Shown: positions 17,395-39,977, counted from the first letter of the stretch. The stretch: DNA of 64,000 nt from a bacterium (GCA_965213685.1 CBDBZY010000018.1:320001-384000), one strand, 5' to 3'. Notes: generated by a model not told the origin, from the sequence alone. Numbers and translations are program-made.

Positions 17395-17649
17395 CATACT
17401 TCGTGCAGATGTCAGTGGCTATTCTGTTTTCATTCGCCAGGAAGAGCGCCCTTGCCAGGGTCTGGTAGGAGGGGCTGCAATCAGAGTGAAGCCACAAGGT
17501 GAACATTTTTCTCTTTCGTGTACCAAAATCTGAATGTGACATTTCAATTGCATCAAGAGCATCATCGTCCAGGTCCAGTTGAAGGCCAACATTGTACCAG
17601 TCAGTTATCTTCAGTCTCATAAGATCCTTCAGTTTGGGTTCAGGCACAT
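17395..17649 (-). CDS. Death domain exon
   Basis: [52 protein letters not shown] is a classic DEATH-fold pattern. tctgcag acceptor, gtaagt donor; phase 1 to 1. Confidence 0.9.
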
Positions 17650-38600: not shown

Positions 38601-39977
38601 TGATAGTACTAGACAGAGGGAGCTGCAGAAAGTCACAGCTACAAGAAGCTCAGGTGCAGTAGAGAAACGGTTTGTTTTGAGGCTGTTACTTAATGGCCTT
38701 TGAGACAGTAGAGACAGTAGAGAATGGAGAGATCCAGCTGTGCAGTCCAGTTAGAGTTAAGAGCAACTCCTCAGCATGAGATATATCTCACTGACAGTAC
38801 CAGACAGAGGGAGTTGCAGAAAGACATAACTACAGTGCATGTGTACATCTACATAAGGGGTAACTCAAAGTTTGCCATTCATATGGAGGGCACACTCCCA
38901 CTAGGGGGTCTGGGAGAATGCCACTGAGTGAATTATTGAAGTACAGACACTCGCAGATGGCTTCTGAGGCATTCTGCAACTAGTCATAGCCATTCTCATT
39001 ATTCTGTTAGGGGATGAAGTTGCTTTCTTGGGGGAGGGGGTGATATTCCAGGCCTTTTCCTCCCCCTGCATGAACCCCTGCTGATTTTGCAACACAACTG
39101 TACCCCATACACATGGCCACATGTACAATCATGCACACCTTACTGCACCTAATGATATCCTAAAATTTGAGGTACATAGGAGAGGGCAAAGAAAAGGTAT
39201 AACTGATCTGCAGCACATGACCACACTTATGCATATTACATGATGCATTACCGGTAATTGGTTTCTAATCCTCAAGTACACATACTTTGAGTAAGGATGT
39301 CATGCTCTGACAGCAATCAGTTGTCTCTATCTGCACTGAGTTTGTGGTCTGTGTCTGGTGTTATTACATGAGGCCATGTGCAGAGGTCAGCTCATAACAG
39401 CATGTGAGGTAGAGTAAAGGTACTGACAGTCCATGCACACACCTGACTCAGAGTTGTAGTACAGGAACTGATTGGTCCATCCTCGACCTTTACTGTCCCC
39501 TGGATTAGGAATGAAGCCTGTCATTGGTTGGTGGGTAGGACGTTCTGCGTACCCTCCAGCAGTGAGTAGATCTCCATTAGTCAGTGACACAAGGCCTGAG
39601 TTCTTAGTACGTAGCATTTGGCCAGTGCTGGCAATTCTCCTCCATACAAAGTTTTGGGAGTTGAAAACAGAGAGCTCATTGCAGAAGCCTGGTACACCAC
39701 AGTGGCCGCCCATGAAGTACACGTTTGTGTGGTACGAGGTGACTGCAGCACCTTGGTACCATGATGGCAGCTCACCAGATGTCAGATATTTCTTCCATGA
39801 TAAGGTCACGCCATCAAACATCTCCACTTCTCGTGGTAGCGTGAACATGCTTTTGTGCTGGAATGACTTAAGCATGCCCCTAAACATCCAGAGTTGTGAG
39901 CCAATTGAAAAGGTTGGAGCATCACAACGTTCCTCAGGATCATATGAGCCAGTTGGCTGTGGAGGAGGCTCAGCCAT
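17395..39977 (-). CDS. Multi-exon gene: Kelch propeller - ROC-COR GTPase - ZU5 - UPA-like - Death domain protein (at least 1541 aa; last exon not fixed)
   Basis: Exons joined by GT-AG with matching phases: 39443-39977, 37390-37550, 36431-36628, 35758-35932, 35356-35442, 20084-22210, 19459-19980, 19274-19377, 19038-19190, 18770-18977, 18609-18707, 17395-17649. Each piece carries recognisable domain motifs. The Kelch-to-ROC join across 13 kb is inferred from phase and from the lack of a stop or start at the junction. Confidence 0.75.
17832..18483 (+). mobile_element. Non-autonomous AcademH-like transposon with RecQ-helicase relic
   Basis: TAGTCTC..GAGACTA termini, 9-bp TSD AGAGAGACA, internal [20 protein letters not shown] / [13 protein letters not shown] (RecQ motifs 0 and I, frameshifted). 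Confidence 0.8.
18609..18707 (-). CDS. Short linker exon
   Basis: tatccag|..[32 protein letters not shown]..|gtaaat; 99 nt, phase 1 to 1; weaker donor. Confidence 0.5.
18770..19377 (-). CDS. Three exons (19274-19377, 19038-19190, 18770-18977) encoding a beta-rich UPA-like region
   Basis: Canonical splice sites and continuous frame; alternating hydrophobic strands ([30 protein letters not shown]) between ZU5 and the Death domain. The UPA name is inferred from position. Confidence 0.7.
19459..19980 (-). CDS. ZU5 domain exon
   Basis: [48 protein letters not shown] is a ZU5 signature. tttttttgcag acceptor, gtaagt donor; phase 1 to 1. Confidence 0.9.
20084..22210 (-). CDS. ROC-COR (Roco GTPase) exon, 2127 nt
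   Basis: G1 [10 protein letters not shown]2 RTST, G3 DCGG(QPQF), G4 GTFKD. COR motifs [50 protein letters not shown]. Acceptor gaacag, donor G|gttggt; phase 1 to 1. Confidence 0.92.
23350..23666 (+). pseudogene. Orphan leucine-rich-repeat exons
   Basis: ccctcag|[14 protein letters not shown]|gtgagt (23350-23392) and actcag|[24 protein letters not shown]|gtagcc (23594-23666; LxxLxLxxNxI). The copy at ~28514-28576 has a deletion and TGG>TAG. Confidence 0.6.
24420..24491 (+). mobile_element. tRNA-like SINE head (AGT anticodon loop)
   Basis: TGGCTCAGTAG, stem TCTGA-CTAGTAT-TCAGA, CTGGG-TTCAAAT-CCCAG. Confidence 0.6.
26093..26161. mobile_element. 69-bp AcademH-like micro-element
   Basis: TAGTCTCGCGAGCC..GGCTCGCGAGACTA with perfect 9-bp TSD CCCTAGCCC; absent in sister Kolobok-like copies. 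Confidence 0.85.
26190..27175 (+). mobile_element. 5'-truncated LINE 3' end (RTE-X-like) with (ATT)n tail
   Basis: [53 protein letters not shown] finger [15 protein letters not shown]; two in-frame stops; AATAAA then (ATT)n. Confidence 0.85.
27446..27767 (+). pseudogene. Decayed STPR-like repeat ORF (Helitron Rep/Hel N-terminus type)
   Basis: Manual translation: [11 protein letters not shown].. / [10 protein letters not shown] / [10 protein letters not shown] / [10 protein letters not shown] / ETPEDRR, with one frameshift and one stop. Candidate A^TC start at 27301. Confidence 0.65.
28217..28440. repeat. Compound (CT)n-(CA)n-(CTCACT)n-(CT)n microsatellite
   Basis: Direct reading. Confidence 0.95.
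29976..34114 (+). mobile_element. Full-length Sola2-type DNA transposon (4139 bp)
   Basis: Imperfect TIRs of about 445 bp (29976-~30420 and ~33670-34114) with GGG..CCC termini, 4-bp TSD ACAT on both sides, and a central transposase ORF. The flanks rejoin to match the paralogous empty segment near 25340-25600. Confidence 0.85.
31262..33601 (+). CDS. Sola2-type DDD transposase, 779 aa from ATG 31262
   Basis: Motifs [30 protein letters not shown]; Cys clusters CCNPF..H..CASC and [16 protein letters not shown]; uninterrupted frame. Confidence 0.85.
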   Translation: MAEGVSQWTNICCNPFGKPSHYVRNKKQLRQVSDWMIKKVPTLKHDQKICASCRKQISHTSTPSPTPEEHRATTPESPVGGYEFPDEGPESDPAVVTPPGEELEPESSESVALVNVCLETFGETPITKTKLKRNKKRSKKKVDKITTMMQKAVISERPSCNDCEIVSQLKEKFQTATRSEKMQILTVLPKSWSVKRIQEEFGTTTFMARQAKELIKEKGVLAMPDLKRGHALSEQTVHLVQNFYQSDDISRVMPGRKDYVSVREGEGRLHVQKRLVLCNLRELYATFKDQHPSDHIGFSKFASLRPKHCVLAGASGTHTVCVCTYHQNVKLMIHAAGLDTSHKHIIAQAVCNPSQPKCFLDKCTACPGTEMLRDSMTIHFEKKAIVNVIYQQWVSVDRTTLETASLPFEDFIDAFIEKVEVLIPHSFIATQQAQFFNECKKELKEGELVVVADFSENYSFVVQDAAQGMHWNNSQATIHPFVVYYQHSDKECHISFVVISDCLQHDTVAVHLFQRELITFLKSVLPFGIAKITYFSDGAASQYKNRKNFVNLCSHEADFGMKAEWHFSATSHGKGACDGVGGTVKRLAARASLQKPFDQQIMSPTQLYEWAKENIPAIVFRYCSTEDYEVVKQELESRFRNSCTIPGTRKLHAFIPLSRHLVAVKLYSNSGDCKEEKVVKDEGELELDGLSGYVTCVYESEWWLACILSVDSENAEVKLTFLHPSGPTSSYRYPAIPDILSVPSSDLLCRVSPRTVTGRTYTITQKESCEVTKKLISRL
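35356..35442 (-). CDS. Linker exon after the Kelch propeller (charged helix)
   Basis: ccactgcag|..[29 protein letters not shown]|gtaggc; phase 1 to 1. The frame stays open to alternative donors near 35187-35193. Confidence 0.6.
35758..35932 (-). CDS. Kelch exon, blade 6
   Basis: ccctacag|[32 protein letters not shown]|gtgagt; phase 0 to 1. Confidence 0.82.
36431..36628 (-). CDS. Kelch exon, blade 5
   Basis: ctctccag|[39 protein letters not shown]|gtgagt; phase 0 to 0. Confidence 0.88.
37390..37550 (-). CDS. Kelch exon, blade 4
   Basis: ccctccag|..[44 protein letters not shown]|gtgagt; phase 1 to 0. Confidence 0.85.
39443..39977 (-). CDS. First coding exon, Kelch blades 1-3
   Basis: ATG in gccATGG context 8 nt after a pyrimidine-tract acceptor (exon edge 39985). 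Motifs [46 protein letters not shown]. Donor G|gtgtgt, phase 1. Confidence 0.85.

What the first reader, a model, noticed from the sequence alone, without database searches (positions are those of the whole stretch)
17395..39977. Kelch-ROC-COR-ZU5-UPA-Death domain protein: candidate new sensor-switch-effector receptor
Seen: twelve minus-strand exons splice in frame. The last Kelch-side exon ends phase 1 (GAA G|gt, 35356) without a stop, and the ROC exon starts phase 1 (ag|GC, 22210) without an ATG, giving ..[33 protein letters not shown]. Established: ZU5-UPA-DD is the tail of PIDD1, UNC5 and ankyrins. ROC-COR occurs in LRRK1/2, DAPK1 and MFHAS1, usually behind LRR or ankyrin repeats. I do not know of a described Roco protein with an N-terminal six-blade Kelch propeller, no kinase and a ZU5-UPA-DD tail. 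Inference: a cytosolic immune or cell-death receptor in which Kelch senses, the GTPase dimer switches and the Death domain nucleates signalling. ORF-based annotation would split it into unrelated fragments.
Basis: partly seen in the sequence, partly recalled or inferred. Interest (0 to 1): 0.9.

Follow-up and report, generated by a model that had tools for sequence, protein, structure and literature searches.

The report
Sponge Kelch-Roco-ZU5-Death receptor gene array
A sponge-like host contig inside a bacterial genome record carries a tandem family of genes that most likely each join a fast-changing Kelch propeller to a Roco GTPase and a ZU5-Death tail, which looks like a new build of intracellular immune or cell-death sensor, though no RNA yet shows that the Kelch and GTPase halves are one transcript.

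Summary
The reported in-frame junction is real. The donor GAAG|GTAGGC at 35356 and the acceptor CAG|GC at 22210 are both phase 1. My model has 11 GT-AG exons, not 12 (4566 nt, 1521 aa). Kelch, ZU5 and Death pass Pfam cut-offs. The large exon misses the Roc and COR cut-offs, but its AlphaFold model matches only Roco structures. UPA is untested.

No RNA was available, so the single transcript is inferred. The ROC exon has no Met before its P-loop. The Kelch side has no stop. A 25%-identical paralog family on other contigs keeps Kelch 1.2-1.9 kb upstream of ROC with the same phase-1 sites.

New findings:
- The gene is one of about 15 tandem units on an 813-kb eukaryotic contig mis-binned in a bacterial assembly.
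- Kelch exons E2-E4 vary 2-5 times more than their introns (dN/dS 0.8-1.0), and replacements cluster in blade loops. All 14 copies stay open.
- ROC, ZU5 and Death are under purifying selection (0.14-0.26).
- The end of ZU5 carries HF|C where relatives have [ST]F|S.

Roco proteins with death-fold domains are already common in invertebrate proteomes. I call this a new variant of a known kind, interest about 0.6.

The parts
39443..39977 (-). Exon 1: start codon and Kelch blades 1-3 (aa 1-179)
   Evidence: ATG in the context CCAGCCATGG. Pfam PF24681 at 5e-14, 52.5 bits against a cut-off of 50. Donor GT is kept in 14 of 14 tandem copies. The exon end at 39441-39443 is shared with the C16/C4 paralogs.
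37390..37550 (-). Exon 2: Kelch blade 4
   Evidence: Pfam PF24681 at 2.8e-7. AG/GT is kept in 14/14 copies. pi is 0.063 against 0.035-0.040 in the flanking introns. dN/dS is 0.93.
36431..36628 (-). Exon 3: Kelch blade 5
   Evidence: Pfam Kelch_4 at 3.7e-4. AG/GT is kept in 14/14 copies. pi is 0.074. dN/dS is 0.83.
35758..35932 (-). Exon 4: Kelch blade 6, with a phase-1 donor TTTG|GTGAGT
   Evidence: There is no Pfam hit; the blade is called from the motif. AG/GT is kept in 14/14 copies. The donor is at the same place and phase in the C16/C4 family (..DTTVLQF, TTCA|GTGAGT). pi is 0.083. dN/dS is 0.99.
35356..35442 (-). Exon 5: 29-codon charged linker that preserves phase, with donor GAAG|GTAGGC
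   Evidence: Splice sites are unchanged in 14/14 copies, and the exon is 87 nt in all of them. Skipping it would also keep the frame.
22211..35355 (-). Intron 5 (13,145 nt), the disputed Kelch-to-ROC join
   Evidence: The Kelch-to-ROC gap is about 4.2-13 kb among the tandem copies. It is 1.2-1.9 kb in the C16/C4 family. The intron holds microsatellites and a plus-strand 857-aa ORF.
20084..22210 (-). Exon 6: Roc G domain plus COR-A and COR-B (aa 386-1095). P-loop GAPGVGKT is at 22133-22110, DCGGQ at 21590-21576 and TFKD at 21311-21300.
   Evidence: AF2 gave pLDDT 77 and pTM 0.79. All 24 Foldseek hits at E<=1e-3 are Roco proteins, led by 6hlu at 5e-13. Motif places are. dN/dS is 0.22.
19459..19980 (-). 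Exon 7a: ZU5 domain (aa 1095-1269), with HFC at 19534-19526
   Evidence: Pfam ZU5 at 4.2e-10, 40.2 bits against a cut-off of 21. ZO-1 ZU5 at 1.6e-4 by sequence. HFC is present in 10/10 copies and aligns with TFS/SFS/TFS in P0094, P0117 and P0141. dN/dS is 0.17.
19274..19377 (-). Exon 7b: start of the UPA-sized segment
   Evidence: The 81 nt upstream carry stops in 7 other copies and a 33-nt insertion in two of those, so it is an intron. The exon is conserved at 61-100% aa identity in 10 units.
19038..19190 (-). Exon 8: UPA-sized segment
   Evidence: Conserved at 47-100% aa identity in 10 units with the same boundaries. There is no Pfam hit. dN/dS is 0.26.
18770..18977 (-). Exon 9: UPA-sized segment
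   Evidence: Conserved at 69-100% aa identity in 10 units. There is no Pfam hit. dN/dS is 0.21.
17354..17649 (-). Exon 10 (the eleventh exon): Death domain and stop codon
   Evidence: Pfam Death at 3.3e-8, 34 bits against a cut-off of 22.6. It is present in 6 tandem units. dN/dS is 0.14.

Best explanation
The stretch 39977-17354 (minus strand) is most likely one 11-exon gene of the animal host, probably a demosponge. It encodes a 1521-aa cytosolic protein with these parts in order:
- a Kelch propeller of about six blades (aa 1-357);
- a short charged linker;
- a divergent Roc GTPase with COR-A and COR-B (aa 387-1095);
- a ZU5 domain that ends in an HF|C motif;
- a conserved UPA-sized segment of about 155 aa;
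- a Death domain.

It is one intact member of a tandem array of about 15 units whose modules have reassorted between units.

Proposed working:
1. The variable loop face of the Kelch propeller binds a ligand, either microbial or a modified host protein.
2. Binding changes the nucleotide state or oligomeric state of the Roc-COR module.
3. That change frees or exposes the ZU5-(UPA)-Death tail, possibly after self-cleavage at HF|C as in PIDD1 or NLRP1.
4. The tail assembles a death-domain signalling complex.

Shown here: the exon chain, the domain identities (except UPA), the array, and the contrast in selection between the Kelch exons and the rest.

Inferred: the single transcript, ligand sensing, GTP switching, self-cleavage, and an immune or cell-death output.
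For: Gene structure.
- The spliced CDS is 4566 nt with only the terminal stop, and all 10 introns are GT..AG.
- The E5 donor and the ROC acceptor are both phase 1.
- The ROC exon has no Met before its P-loop.
- E1-E5 keep their length (0 or -3 nt), stay open and keep their splice sites (E1: donor only) in 14 of 14 copies.
- On C18, 14 of 14 Kelch exon sets are followed on the same strand by a ROC exon or its remains.
- In the 25%-identical family on C16/C4, 4 of 5 E4 donors (phase 1, same place) are followed 1.2-1.9 kb later by a ROC exon. Its best acceptor has 14-15 of 15 pyrimidines and is phase 1. It lies 23-25 codons before the P-loop, and no ATG precedes the P-loop.

Domains.
- Kelch, ZU5 and Death are above Pfam cut-offs.
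- The Roc-COR model (pLDDT 77) matches only Roco structures at E<=1e-3: 24 of 24 hits, including C. tepidum, M. barkeri, LRRK1 and LRRK2.
- BLASTP to a Halichondria protein also aligns our residues 172-531 with its Pfam-positive Roc module (1e-11).
- G1 (GxxxxGK), DxGGQ and TFxD are invariant in 13 relatives.

Sensor-like evolution.
- dN/dS is 0.83-0.99 in E2-E4, against 0.14-0.26 in ROC, ZU5, E8, E9 and Death.
- pi is 0.063-0.083 in E2-E4, against 0.017-0.035 in the introns between them. Variable columns are 121/534 against 227/1686 (odds ratio 1.88, p 8e-7).
- The reverse holds in the tail, where exons vary less than introns.
- Replacements cluster at a few sites in each blade.
- There are 0 stops in 14 x 383 codons, where about 49 are expected if the 1131 differences were placed at random.

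Modular family.
- Relatives of the ROC exon are fused to a caspase domain, ankyrin repeats, a subtilase domain or ZU5.
- Another unit of the array carries a different Death domain.

Self-cleavage lead.
- HFC is present in 10/10 copies and aligns with [ST]FS in three ZU5-bearing relatives.
Against: - No transcript evidence exists for any junction. The E5-to-ROC intron is 13.1 kb here and holds an opposite-strand 857-aa ORF.
- The tandem copies are recent duplicates, so their shared Kelch-ROC order counts as little more than one observation.
- The phase match alone has a 1-in-3 chance.
- One ROC unit (C18:80597) has no Kelch exons upstream, and one Kelch set on C4 has no ROC downstream.
- The Kelch block and the ROC block have different histories. 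Two neighbouring genes would allow that as well.
- None of the 10 long database relatives scanned has Kelch. No relative outside this assembly could be fetched with flanks.
- Roc and COR-A are below Pfam cut-offs in this protein. A family profile found no Roco chain in PDB by sequence.
- UPA is unproven.
- dS is raised as well as dN in E2-E4. The excess over introns may therefore partly reflect gene conversion of the introns or multi-base codon changes, not selection alone.
- E1 is not more variable than its flanks.
- Cys in place of Ser at the ZU5 motif may just as well mean that there is no cleavage.
- No AATAAA or ATTAAA lies within 560 nt after the stop.
Confidence: 0.6

Rival explanations
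1. There are two neighbouring genes. One is a Kelch-only gene (E1-E4 or E1-E5, ending by read-through into the intron). The other is a separate ROC-COR-ZU5-Death gene whose true first exon lies unseen in the 13-kb gap. The pair has been duplicated together.
For: - There is no RNA evidence.
- The gap is 13.1 kb here and 4-13 kb in the other copies.
- Read-through after 35356 or after 35758 meets a stop within 58 or 29 codons.
- The Kelch and ROC blocks have discordant divergence.
- One ROC unit has no Kelch exons, and one Kelch set has no ROC.
- None of the 10 long relatives of the ROC exon has Kelch.
Against: - The donor after E5 is a consensus site, unchanged in 14/14 copies.
- The ROC exon begins at a strong acceptor, without a start codon.
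- The phases match in both paralog families. In the distant family the gap is only 1.2-1.9 kb, which leaves little room for a promoter and a first exon.
- No stop lies inside any Kelch-side exon in 14 copies.
Confidence: 0.2
2. It is one gene as modelled, but not a pathogen or danger sensor. It would be a constitutive cell-death or cytoskeletal regulator in the manner of DAPK1, PIDD1 or ankyrin. The Kelch variation would then reflect relaxed constraint and gene conversion in a young array.
For: - dN/dS in E2-E5 is near 1 rather than clearly above it, and dS is raised too.
- E1 is no more variable than its flanks.
- Several units are broken: a frameshift in u730078, interrupted ROC exons in u212386 and u262304, and fragments only in u553133.
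- From recalled family knowledge, DAPK1 and PIDD1 have non-immune roles.
Against: - There are 0 stops where about 49 are expected in the Kelch exons.
- Exon variation exceeds intron variation only in the Kelch blades, not in the tail.
- Replacements are concentrated at a few loop positions with up to 5-6 alternative residues, while the framework residues are fixed.
- Relatives of the ROC module are fused to caspase, CARD, Death and subtilase domains.
Confidence: 0.15
3. The array is decaying repeat DNA or an assembly artefact, and this copy makes no functional protein.
For: - 4 of 15 units have a broken or fragmentary ROC exon.
- Only 6 units keep this type of Death exon.
- The contig sits in a mis-binned assembly.
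Against: - This copy and at least two others (u773040, u31763) are open over all 11 exons.
- Purifying selection acts on ROC, ZU5 and Death.
- Four independent DNA runs cover the exons and introns of this region.
Confidence: 0.05

Closest known systems
DAPK1 (human Roco protein: kinase, ankyrin repeats, Roc-COR, Death domain)
   Same: A Roc-COR module is followed by a C-terminal Death domain, with a repeat domain in front of Roc. This is described in the Roco review PMC6320773 (passages).
   Different: DAPK1 has an N-terminal kinase and ankyrin repeats and no ZU5. Here there is no kinase, the repeats are Kelch, and ZU5 plus a UPA-sized segment sit before the Death domain.
PIDD1 / UNC5 / ankyrin ZU5-UPA-Death supramodule
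   Same: ZU5 is followed about 155 aa later by a Death domain. The low-confidence ZU5 model has ZO-1, UNC5b and ankyrin-B ZU5 chains as its top 4 hits, but none reaches 1e-3. An H-F-x motif sits at the end of ZU5, where PIDD1 cleaves itself at HF|S (recalled).
   Different: PIDD1 has LRRs and two ZU5 domains and no GTPase (recalled). Here the residue after HF is Cys, not Ser. UPA was not confirmed.
NLRP1 / CARD8 (FIIND = ZU5-UPA, then a death-fold domain)
   Same: Works alike in layout: sensor repeats, then an NTPase switch, then ZU5-UPA, then a death-fold domain. Relatives of our ZU5 carry [ST]F|S at the aligned place, which is the FIIND type of cleavage motif (recalled).
   Different: The NTPase is Roc-COR by fold, not NACHT. 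The repeats are Kelch, not LRR. The tail is a Death domain, not CARD. It is not a member of this family.
Ectocarpus LRR-ROCO candidate immune receptors (Zambounis et al. 2012, PMC3341825, abstract read; PMC11378527, search listing and start of abstract only)
   Same: A Roco GTPase family with high gene birth and death, a repeat domain under diversifying selection, repeats encoded exon by exon, and exon or module shuffling. Here blades 4, 5 and 6 each occupy one exon.
   Different: The repeats there are LRR, and the abstract I read mentions no ZU5 or Death tail. The host is a brown alga, not an animal.
Dictyostelium Roco proteins with Kelch or WD40 flanks (PMC6320773, passage)
   Same: A Kelch-type propeller sits in the same polypeptide as Roc-COR.
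   Different: According to the review, those proteins always have an LRR before Roc-COR and a MAPKKK-type kinase after it. Neither is present here.
Halichondria panicea LOC135343006 / LOC135342984 (P0002, P0003; uncharacterized)
   Same: These are the closest named relatives of the ROC exon: 26% identity over 91% of it, E 5e-56. They also carry Death and Roc-COR.
   Different: They are 3200-3300 aa long, with an N-terminal Death domain and several Roc-COR-like modules. Pfam found no Kelch or ZU5 in them.

Membership tests
Roco (Roc-COR tandem GTPases) | Ras-like Roc G domain with a P-loop, DxxG and a G4-type motif | tested here: met
   [13 protein letters not shown] and TFKD are present and invariant in 13 relatives. 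The fold matches Roco chains at 5e-13. The G4 motif is T-F-K-D, not N-K-x-D, so guanine specificity is not proven.
Roco (Roc-COR tandem GTPases) | COR domain directly C-terminal of Roc | tested here: met
   Foldseek alignments of 518-758 columns to Roc-COR structures 6hlu, 3dpu, LRRK1 and LRRK2, and a hit to the COR-only chain 3dpt_B at 3.9e-9.
Roco (Roc-COR tandem GTPases) | Reaches Pfam gathering scores for Roc (PF08477) and COR-A (PF16095) | tested here: not met
   Roc scores 15.7 bits against 27, and COR-A 18.7 against 35.3. The profile of 13 relatives finds no Roco chain in PDB by sequence. I therefore file it as a divergent branch, supported by fold and by transitive hits.
Roco (Roc-COR tandem GTPases) | GTP binding and hydrolysis, and COR-mediated dimer | not testable with these tools
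   This needs biochemistry.
Kelch beta-propeller | Kelch repeats above the curated cut-off | tested here: met
   PF24681 scores 52.5 bits against 50 on exon 1. Weaker Kelch hits fall on exons 2 and 3 and none on exon 4. The Atlas neighbours are Kelch clusters, including one from Porifera.
Kelch beta-propeller | Closed six-blade propeller | not testable with these tools
   Six blades are counted from the GG and W motifs in the exon translations. The spliced protein could not be handed to the structure tools.
ZU5-UPA-Death supramodule (PIDD1, UNC5, ankyrin) | ZU5 domain | tested here: met
   Pfam ZU5 scores 40.2 bits against 21. ZO-1 ZU5 matches at 1.6e-4 by sequence.
ZU5-UPA-Death supramodule (PIDD1, UNC5, ankyrin) | UPA domain between ZU5 and Death | tested here: inconclusive
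   There is no Pfam hit on exons 7b, 8 or 9 taken singly. The segment has the right size (155 aa), is conserved in 10 units and has dN/dS of 0.21-0.26.
ZU5-UPA-Death supramodule (PIDD1, UNC5, ankyrin) | C-terminal Death domain | tested here: met
   Pfam Death scores 34 bits against 22.6.
ZU5-UPA-Death supramodule (PIDD1, UNC5, ankyrin) | Self-cleaving HF|S-type motif at the end of ZU5 | tested here: inconclusive
   HFC is present in 10/10 copies and aligns with TFS, SFS and TFS in relatives. Whether Cys can serve as the nucleophile is untested.
NLR / STAND NTPases | NACHT or NB-ARC type STAND ATPase core | tested here: not met
   There is only a P-loop-level nSTAND3 hit (E 0.0035, 17.5 bits against 27). 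The fold search gives Roco proteins, with no STAND protein among the 24 hits at E<=1e-3.
DAPK1 / LRRK type Roco kinases | Protein kinase domain in the same polypeptide | tested here: not met
   There is no kinase hit in any exon or ORF of 17000-40500 that was scanned.

The most novel reading that the evidence does not exclude
Sponges have built an NLRP1-like 'guard and release' receptor from different parts. The Kelch propeller has hypervariable loops, diversified across a tandem array by selection and module shuffling, and stands in for the LRR. A Roc-COR GTPase stands in for NACHT. A ZU5-UPA unit cleaves itself at HF|C, with Cys as the nucleophile. Ligand binding, or attack on the N-terminal part, then frees a UPA-Death fragment that seeds a death-domain signalling complex. 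This would be an independent invention of the sensor-switch-FIIND-death-fold design in an early-branching animal.
Probability: 0.2. Interest if true: 0.85.

Novelty: new variant of a known kind. Interest (0 to 1): 0.6.

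Why it matters
If the join is real, this is a large, fast-diversifying family of cytosolic receptors in an early-branching animal. It uses a Roco GTPase rather than a NACHT ATPase as the switch, and a Kelch propeller rather than LRRs as the variable surface. That would:
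- widen the known set of solutions for innate sensing;
- give Roco GTPases, known mainly through LRRK2 and DAPK1, a testable ancestral role in immunity or cell death;
- offer a natural series of 14 Kelch variants for finding ligands in sponge-microbe symbiosis.

There are two practical points. Such genes are invisible to ORF-based annotation, which lists them as about 700-aa orphans. And this 'bacterial' genome record carries several Mb of contigs with non-bacterial base composition.

Tried and rejected
RNA evidence.
- The look-up of sequencing runs listed no RNA holder.
- The four runs laid cover introns about as deeply as exons, and contigs cross the 103-nt intron unspliced. They behave as DNA and say nothing on splicing.
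- One joint, 19982->20078 (95 nt, not GT-AG), appears in two runs. It does not match the intron, and I read it as a variant copy.

Complex prediction.
- Two copies of COR (residues 355-708 of the exon) were sent. The answer was 'no answer', so it is not used either way.

Relatives with flanks.
- Genome contigs gave none.
- 41 genomes of the bacterial family gave 0 of 41.
- Metagenome contigs with a 13-sequence profile gave none.
- The search for homologous proteins with the ZU5 exon and 'longer' lengths gave none.

Weak or failed analyses.
- The sequence profile A1 against PDB gave only P-loop noise.
- The Death exon against PDB sequences gave nothing useful.
- The AF2 model of ZU5 was poor (pLDDT 58). 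Its fold search has ZU5 proteins as the top four hits but none at E<=1e-3, so I treat it as weak.
- My first ab-initio exon chain, with a low intron penalty, invented 36 micro-exons and was discarded. With penalties of 8-12 it gave the backbone, which I then corrected with paralog conservation.
- The first tblastx run was swamped by microsatellites.
- The first stop-codon simulation used a consensus that itself held a stop and is void. One search replaces it.
- A 99-nt candidate exon at 18707-18609 was rejected because it is not conserved in diverged copies.
- A P-loop DNA pattern matched nothing.

Surroundings.
- 10 of the ORFs of at least 110 aa in 1-17300 and 40300-64000 gave no meaningful Pfam family.
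- 5 ORFs downstream of a C16 ROC exon gave none.
- No AATAAA or ATTAAA lies within 560 nt after the stop.

- Supplementary files of papers were not opened. Domain tables in the supplements of PMC12909245, PMC6208332 and PMC8195603 could list this architecture.

Full report
WHERE THE WINDOW LIES

The window is G000:C18:320001-384000. G000 is filed as one prokaryote genome, but it is a mixture.
- 49 of its 71 contigs have 61-69% G+C.
- 22 contigs, 4.9 of 7.97 Mb, have 33-54% G+C. Among them is C18, at 813 kb and 45%.
- C18 has microsatellites, GT-AG introns and genes whose nearest named relatives come from the sponges Halichondria panicea and Ephydatia muelleri.
- None of 41 other genomes of the bacterial family has a match to the ROC exon.

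I therefore read C18 as a contig of the animal host, probably a demosponge, that was binned with a symbiont.

THE OBSERVATION

- The ATG at 39977 sits in the context CCAGCCATGG.
- The donor after 35356 reads GAGAGTGAAG|GTAGGC.
- The acceptor before 22210 reads TTTTACGTGAACAG|GC.

I built an exon chain in three steps. First I used a splice-site and codon-usage dynamic programme. A low intron penalty over-fitted; penalties of 8-12 gave a stable backbone. Then I corrected the chain with conservation in diverged paralogs. Finally I projected it onto every tandem copy.

The result is 11 exons, 4566 nt and 1521 codons plus a stop. All 10 introns are GT..AG.

The 81 nt at 19458-19378 is open here only because this copy has CGA where five others have TGA. 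Two more copies carry a 33-nt insertion with stops there. So it is an intron between a perfect donor (AATG|GTAAGT) and the acceptor at 19377. A candidate 99-nt exon at 18707-18609 is not conserved, and I left it out.

WHAT THE EXONS ENCODE

Kelch (exons 1-4).
- Exon 1 passes the curated cut-off of PF24681 (52.5 bits against 50). Exons 2 and 3 give weaker Kelch hits. Exon 4 gives none.
- I count six blades from the repeat motifs: three in exon 1 and one each in exons 2, 3 and 4.
- I could not fold the joined protein, because only unspliced window sequence may be handed to the structure tools.

Linker (exon 5). It is a 29-codon charged linker that preserves phase.

Roc-COR (the 2127-nt exon).
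- By sequence it is only weakly Roc (E 0.018) and COR-A (E 0.0017), both below cut-off.
- A profile of 13 relatives finds no Roco chain in PDB by sequence.
- By fold the case is clear. An AlphaFold model made with that alignment has pLDDT 77 and pTM 0.79. It has one disordered insert at exon residues 94-174.
- All 24 Foldseek hits at E<=1e-3 are Roco proteins: the C. tepidum Roc-COR (5e-13), LRRK1, LRRK2 and M. barkeri Roco2.
- The P-loop, DxGGQ and TFxD are invariant in the 13 relatives.
- BLASTP to a Halichondria protein aligns the whole exon with one of its modules (26% identity). It also aligns residues 172-531 with the module that Pfam calls Roc.

Tail.
- Exon 7a is a ZU5 domain (40.2 bits against 21; ZO-1 ZU5 at 1.6e-4).
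- The last exon is a Death domain (34 bits against 22.6).
- Between them, exons 7b, 8 and 9 encode 155 residues. These are conserved in 10 units with the same exon borders but have no Pfam hit when scanned exon by exon. 'UPA' is thus a fair guess and not a result.

No kinase, LRR or ankyrin domain was found in the exons and ORFs scanned.

IS IT ONE GENE?

No RNA could be brought to bear. No RNA run is listed, and the four runs that hold the region behave as DNA.

The case for one gene is therefore indirect.
1. The ROC exon starts at a good acceptor, 26 codons before the P-loop. Its first Met comes after the P-loop, so it needs an upstream coding exon that ends in phase 1.
2. Both exon 4 and exon 5 end in phase 1 at consensus donors and contain no stop. 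These features are unchanged in 14 of 14 copies.
3. On C18, all 14 Kelch exon sets are followed on the same strand by a ROC exon or its remains, 4-13 kb downstream.
4. The fourth point carries the most weight. A second family on contigs C16 and C4 is only about 25% identical in protein, yet it has the same layout. Kelch exons 1-4 have the exon-4 donor at the homologous place and in phase 1 (..DTTVLQF, TTCA|GTGAGT). In 4 of 5 cases a ROC exon follows 1.2-1.9 kb further on. Its best acceptor (14-15 of 15 pyrimidines) is phase 1 and lies 23-25 codons before the P-loop. Again no ATG precedes the P-loop.

Against one gene:
- The tandem copies are recent duplicates and count as little more than one observation.
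- Phase agreement has a 1-in-3 chance.
- One ROC unit (at C18:80597) has no Kelch exons, and one Kelch set (on C4) has no ROC.
- The intron is long here and holds an opposite-strand 857-aa ORF.
- None of the 10 long database relatives of the ROC exon that I scanned has Kelch.

I put the single-gene reading at roughly three in four.

THE ARRAY AND ITS EVOLUTION

Fifteen units lie head to tail on the minus strand of C18.

Condition of the units.
- This copy and at least two others (u773040, u31763) are open over all exons.
- One unit has a frameshifted ROC exon. Two have ROC exons interrupted by insertions. One has only ROC fragments.
- ZU5 to exon 9 of this type is present in 10 units, and this type of Death exon in 6.
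- One unit that lacks them has, downstream of its ROC exon, a weak ZU5-like match and a different Death domain (Pfam 3.7e-6).

Modules reassort.
- Exon 1 comes in two types (77% against 91-96% nt identity to ours).
- The ROC exon comes in two types (97-99% against 87-89%), separated by an 18-codon deletion and a 3-codon insertion in the disordered insert (net 15 codons).
- ZU5 comes in three or more types.
- The combinations differ from unit to unit.

Selection differs sharply along the gene. Pairwise Nei-Gojobori dN/dS values are:
- 0.93, 0.83, 0.99 and 0.86 for exons 2-5;
- 0.38 for exon 1;
- 0.22 for ROC, 0.17 for ZU5, 0.26 and 0.21 for exons 8 and 9, and 0.14 for Death.

Nucleotide diversity tells the same story.
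- Among the 14 copies it is 0.063, 0.074 and 0.083 in exons 2, 3 and 4. It is 0.035, 0.025 and 0.017 in the introns between them.
- Variable columns are 121 of 534 in exons against 227 of 1686 in introns (odds ratio 1.88, p 8e-7). The columns are not independent, so this p is rough.
- In the tail the order is the usual one, with exons less variable than introns.

The Kelch replacements are not spread evenly. They pile up at a few positions in each blade, with up to five or six alternative residues. These positions lie just after the GG doublet and around the R..H that precedes the first strand. The framework is fixed. From recalled knowledge of Kelch propellers such as Keap1, these are the B-C and D-A loops that form the ligand face.

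None of the 14 x 383 Kelch codons is a stop. About 49 stops would be expected if the 1131 observed differences were placed at random (the earlier one search was faulty).

Two cautions apply. dS is raised as well as dN, so intron homogenisation by gene conversion or multi-base codon swaps may contribute. And exon 1 is not more variable than its own flanks.

A LEAD ON THE TAIL

At the end of ZU5 all 10 copies read K-H-F-C. In an alignment with three database relatives that have ROC-COR and ZU5 in one open frame, this lines up with T-F-S, S-F-S and T-F-S. From memory, that is the place and type of motif at which PIDD1 (HF|S) and the FIIND of NLRP1 and CARD8 (F|S) cleave themselves. Whether Cys can do the job here is open.

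HOW IT MOST LIKELY WORKS

Shown: the architecture, a variable Kelch face kept open by selection, and a conserved GTPase, ZU5 and Death domain.

Inferred from family knowledge:
1. The propeller binds a ligand.
2. Roc-COR changes nucleotide or oligomer state.
3. The ZU5-(UPA)-Death tail, perhaps after self-cleavage, seeds a death-domain complex.

Relatives of the ROC exon are fused to a caspase domain (P0073), ankyrin repeats (P0191), a subtilase domain (P0199) or ZU5 (P0094, P0117, P0141). Language-model neighbours are Roc/COR clusters of molluscs and sponges, some with Death or CARD domains. These fusions fit a switch module that is plugged between varied sensors and effectors.

COMPARISON AND NOVELTY

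The gene is a divergent member of the Roco family by fold, but not by Pfam score.

It is not:
- a DAPK1 or LRRK type, since it has no kinase;
- the Dictyostelium type with Kelch flanks, which has an LRR and a kinase (PMC6320773, passages);
- an NLR.

Its layout works like NLRP1 (repeats, NTPase, ZU5-UPA, death-fold). Its evolution resembles the LRR-ROCO candidate receptors of brown algae (PMC3341825, abstract).

Roc-COR with TIR or Death domains has been reported from sea anemones and Aplysia (PMC5094078 and PMC9334734, passages).

Five full-text searches found no paper describing Kelch with Roc, COR, ZU5 and Death together. One of them required all five words and returned 0 papers. The library lacks most subscription journals, and supplements were closed.

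Verdict: a new variant of a known kind. It is interesting mainly for the hypervariable Kelch array and the NLRP1-like layout, and it still depends on transcript proof.

Noticed in passing
whole assembly G000 (window = C18:320001-384000): The record is filed as one prokaryote genome (94% complete, 3.7% contamination), but 22 of its 71 contigs (4.9 of 7.97 Mb) have 33-54% G+C against 61-69% for the rest. At least C18, C16, C4 and C57 carry intron-bearing, sponge-like genes. Marker-based contamination scores do not see this.
   Followed up: partly
window 31028-33601 (+), inside intron 5: An 857-aa open frame lies on the opposite strand. It is single copy in the assembly. It has no Pfam family above noise and no PDB relative. 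It is a nested gene or a transposon remnant, and it accounts for part of the 13-kb intron of this copy.
   Followed up: partly
window 19534-19526 (-) and the same place in 9 other units: An H-F-C motif sits at the end of ZU5. It aligns with [ST]-F-S of relatives, the place where PIDD1 and FIIND proteins cleave themselves (recalled). An earlier H-F-A lies at 19693-19685.
   Followed up: partly
window 22208-22030 (-), first 60 codons of the ROC exon: These codons are identical in protein in all 11 intact copies, although the two ROC types differ by about 12% in DNA over the exon. This means strong constraint or a local gene-conversion tract next to the acceptor.
   Followed up: no
window 19458-19378 (-): This 81-nt intron is a multiple of three and open in this copy only (CGA where five copies have TGA). 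Retaining it would add 27 residues between ZU5 and the next exon.
   Followed up: yes
L018:1535-2173 (-) = C18:396535-397173: The neighbouring unit (ROC exon at C18:402574-404691) lacks this copy's tail. It has a different Death domain (Pfam 3.7e-6) and a weak ZU5-like match (26% identity). The tails come in diverged types.
   Followed up: partly
C18:532989-535085 (-) and C57:16592-18301 (-): Further ROC-COR exons, only 26-28% identical to ours, lie here. One sits inside the array next to ROC fragments with stops. Their N- and C-terminal partners were not examined.
   Followed up: no
window 23916-24101, 28200-29400 and elsewhere in intron 5: Long (CA)n, (GA)n and (GGAAGG)n-type microsatellites give many spurious open frames on both strands. 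They also stopped read laying across the intron.
   Followed up: no
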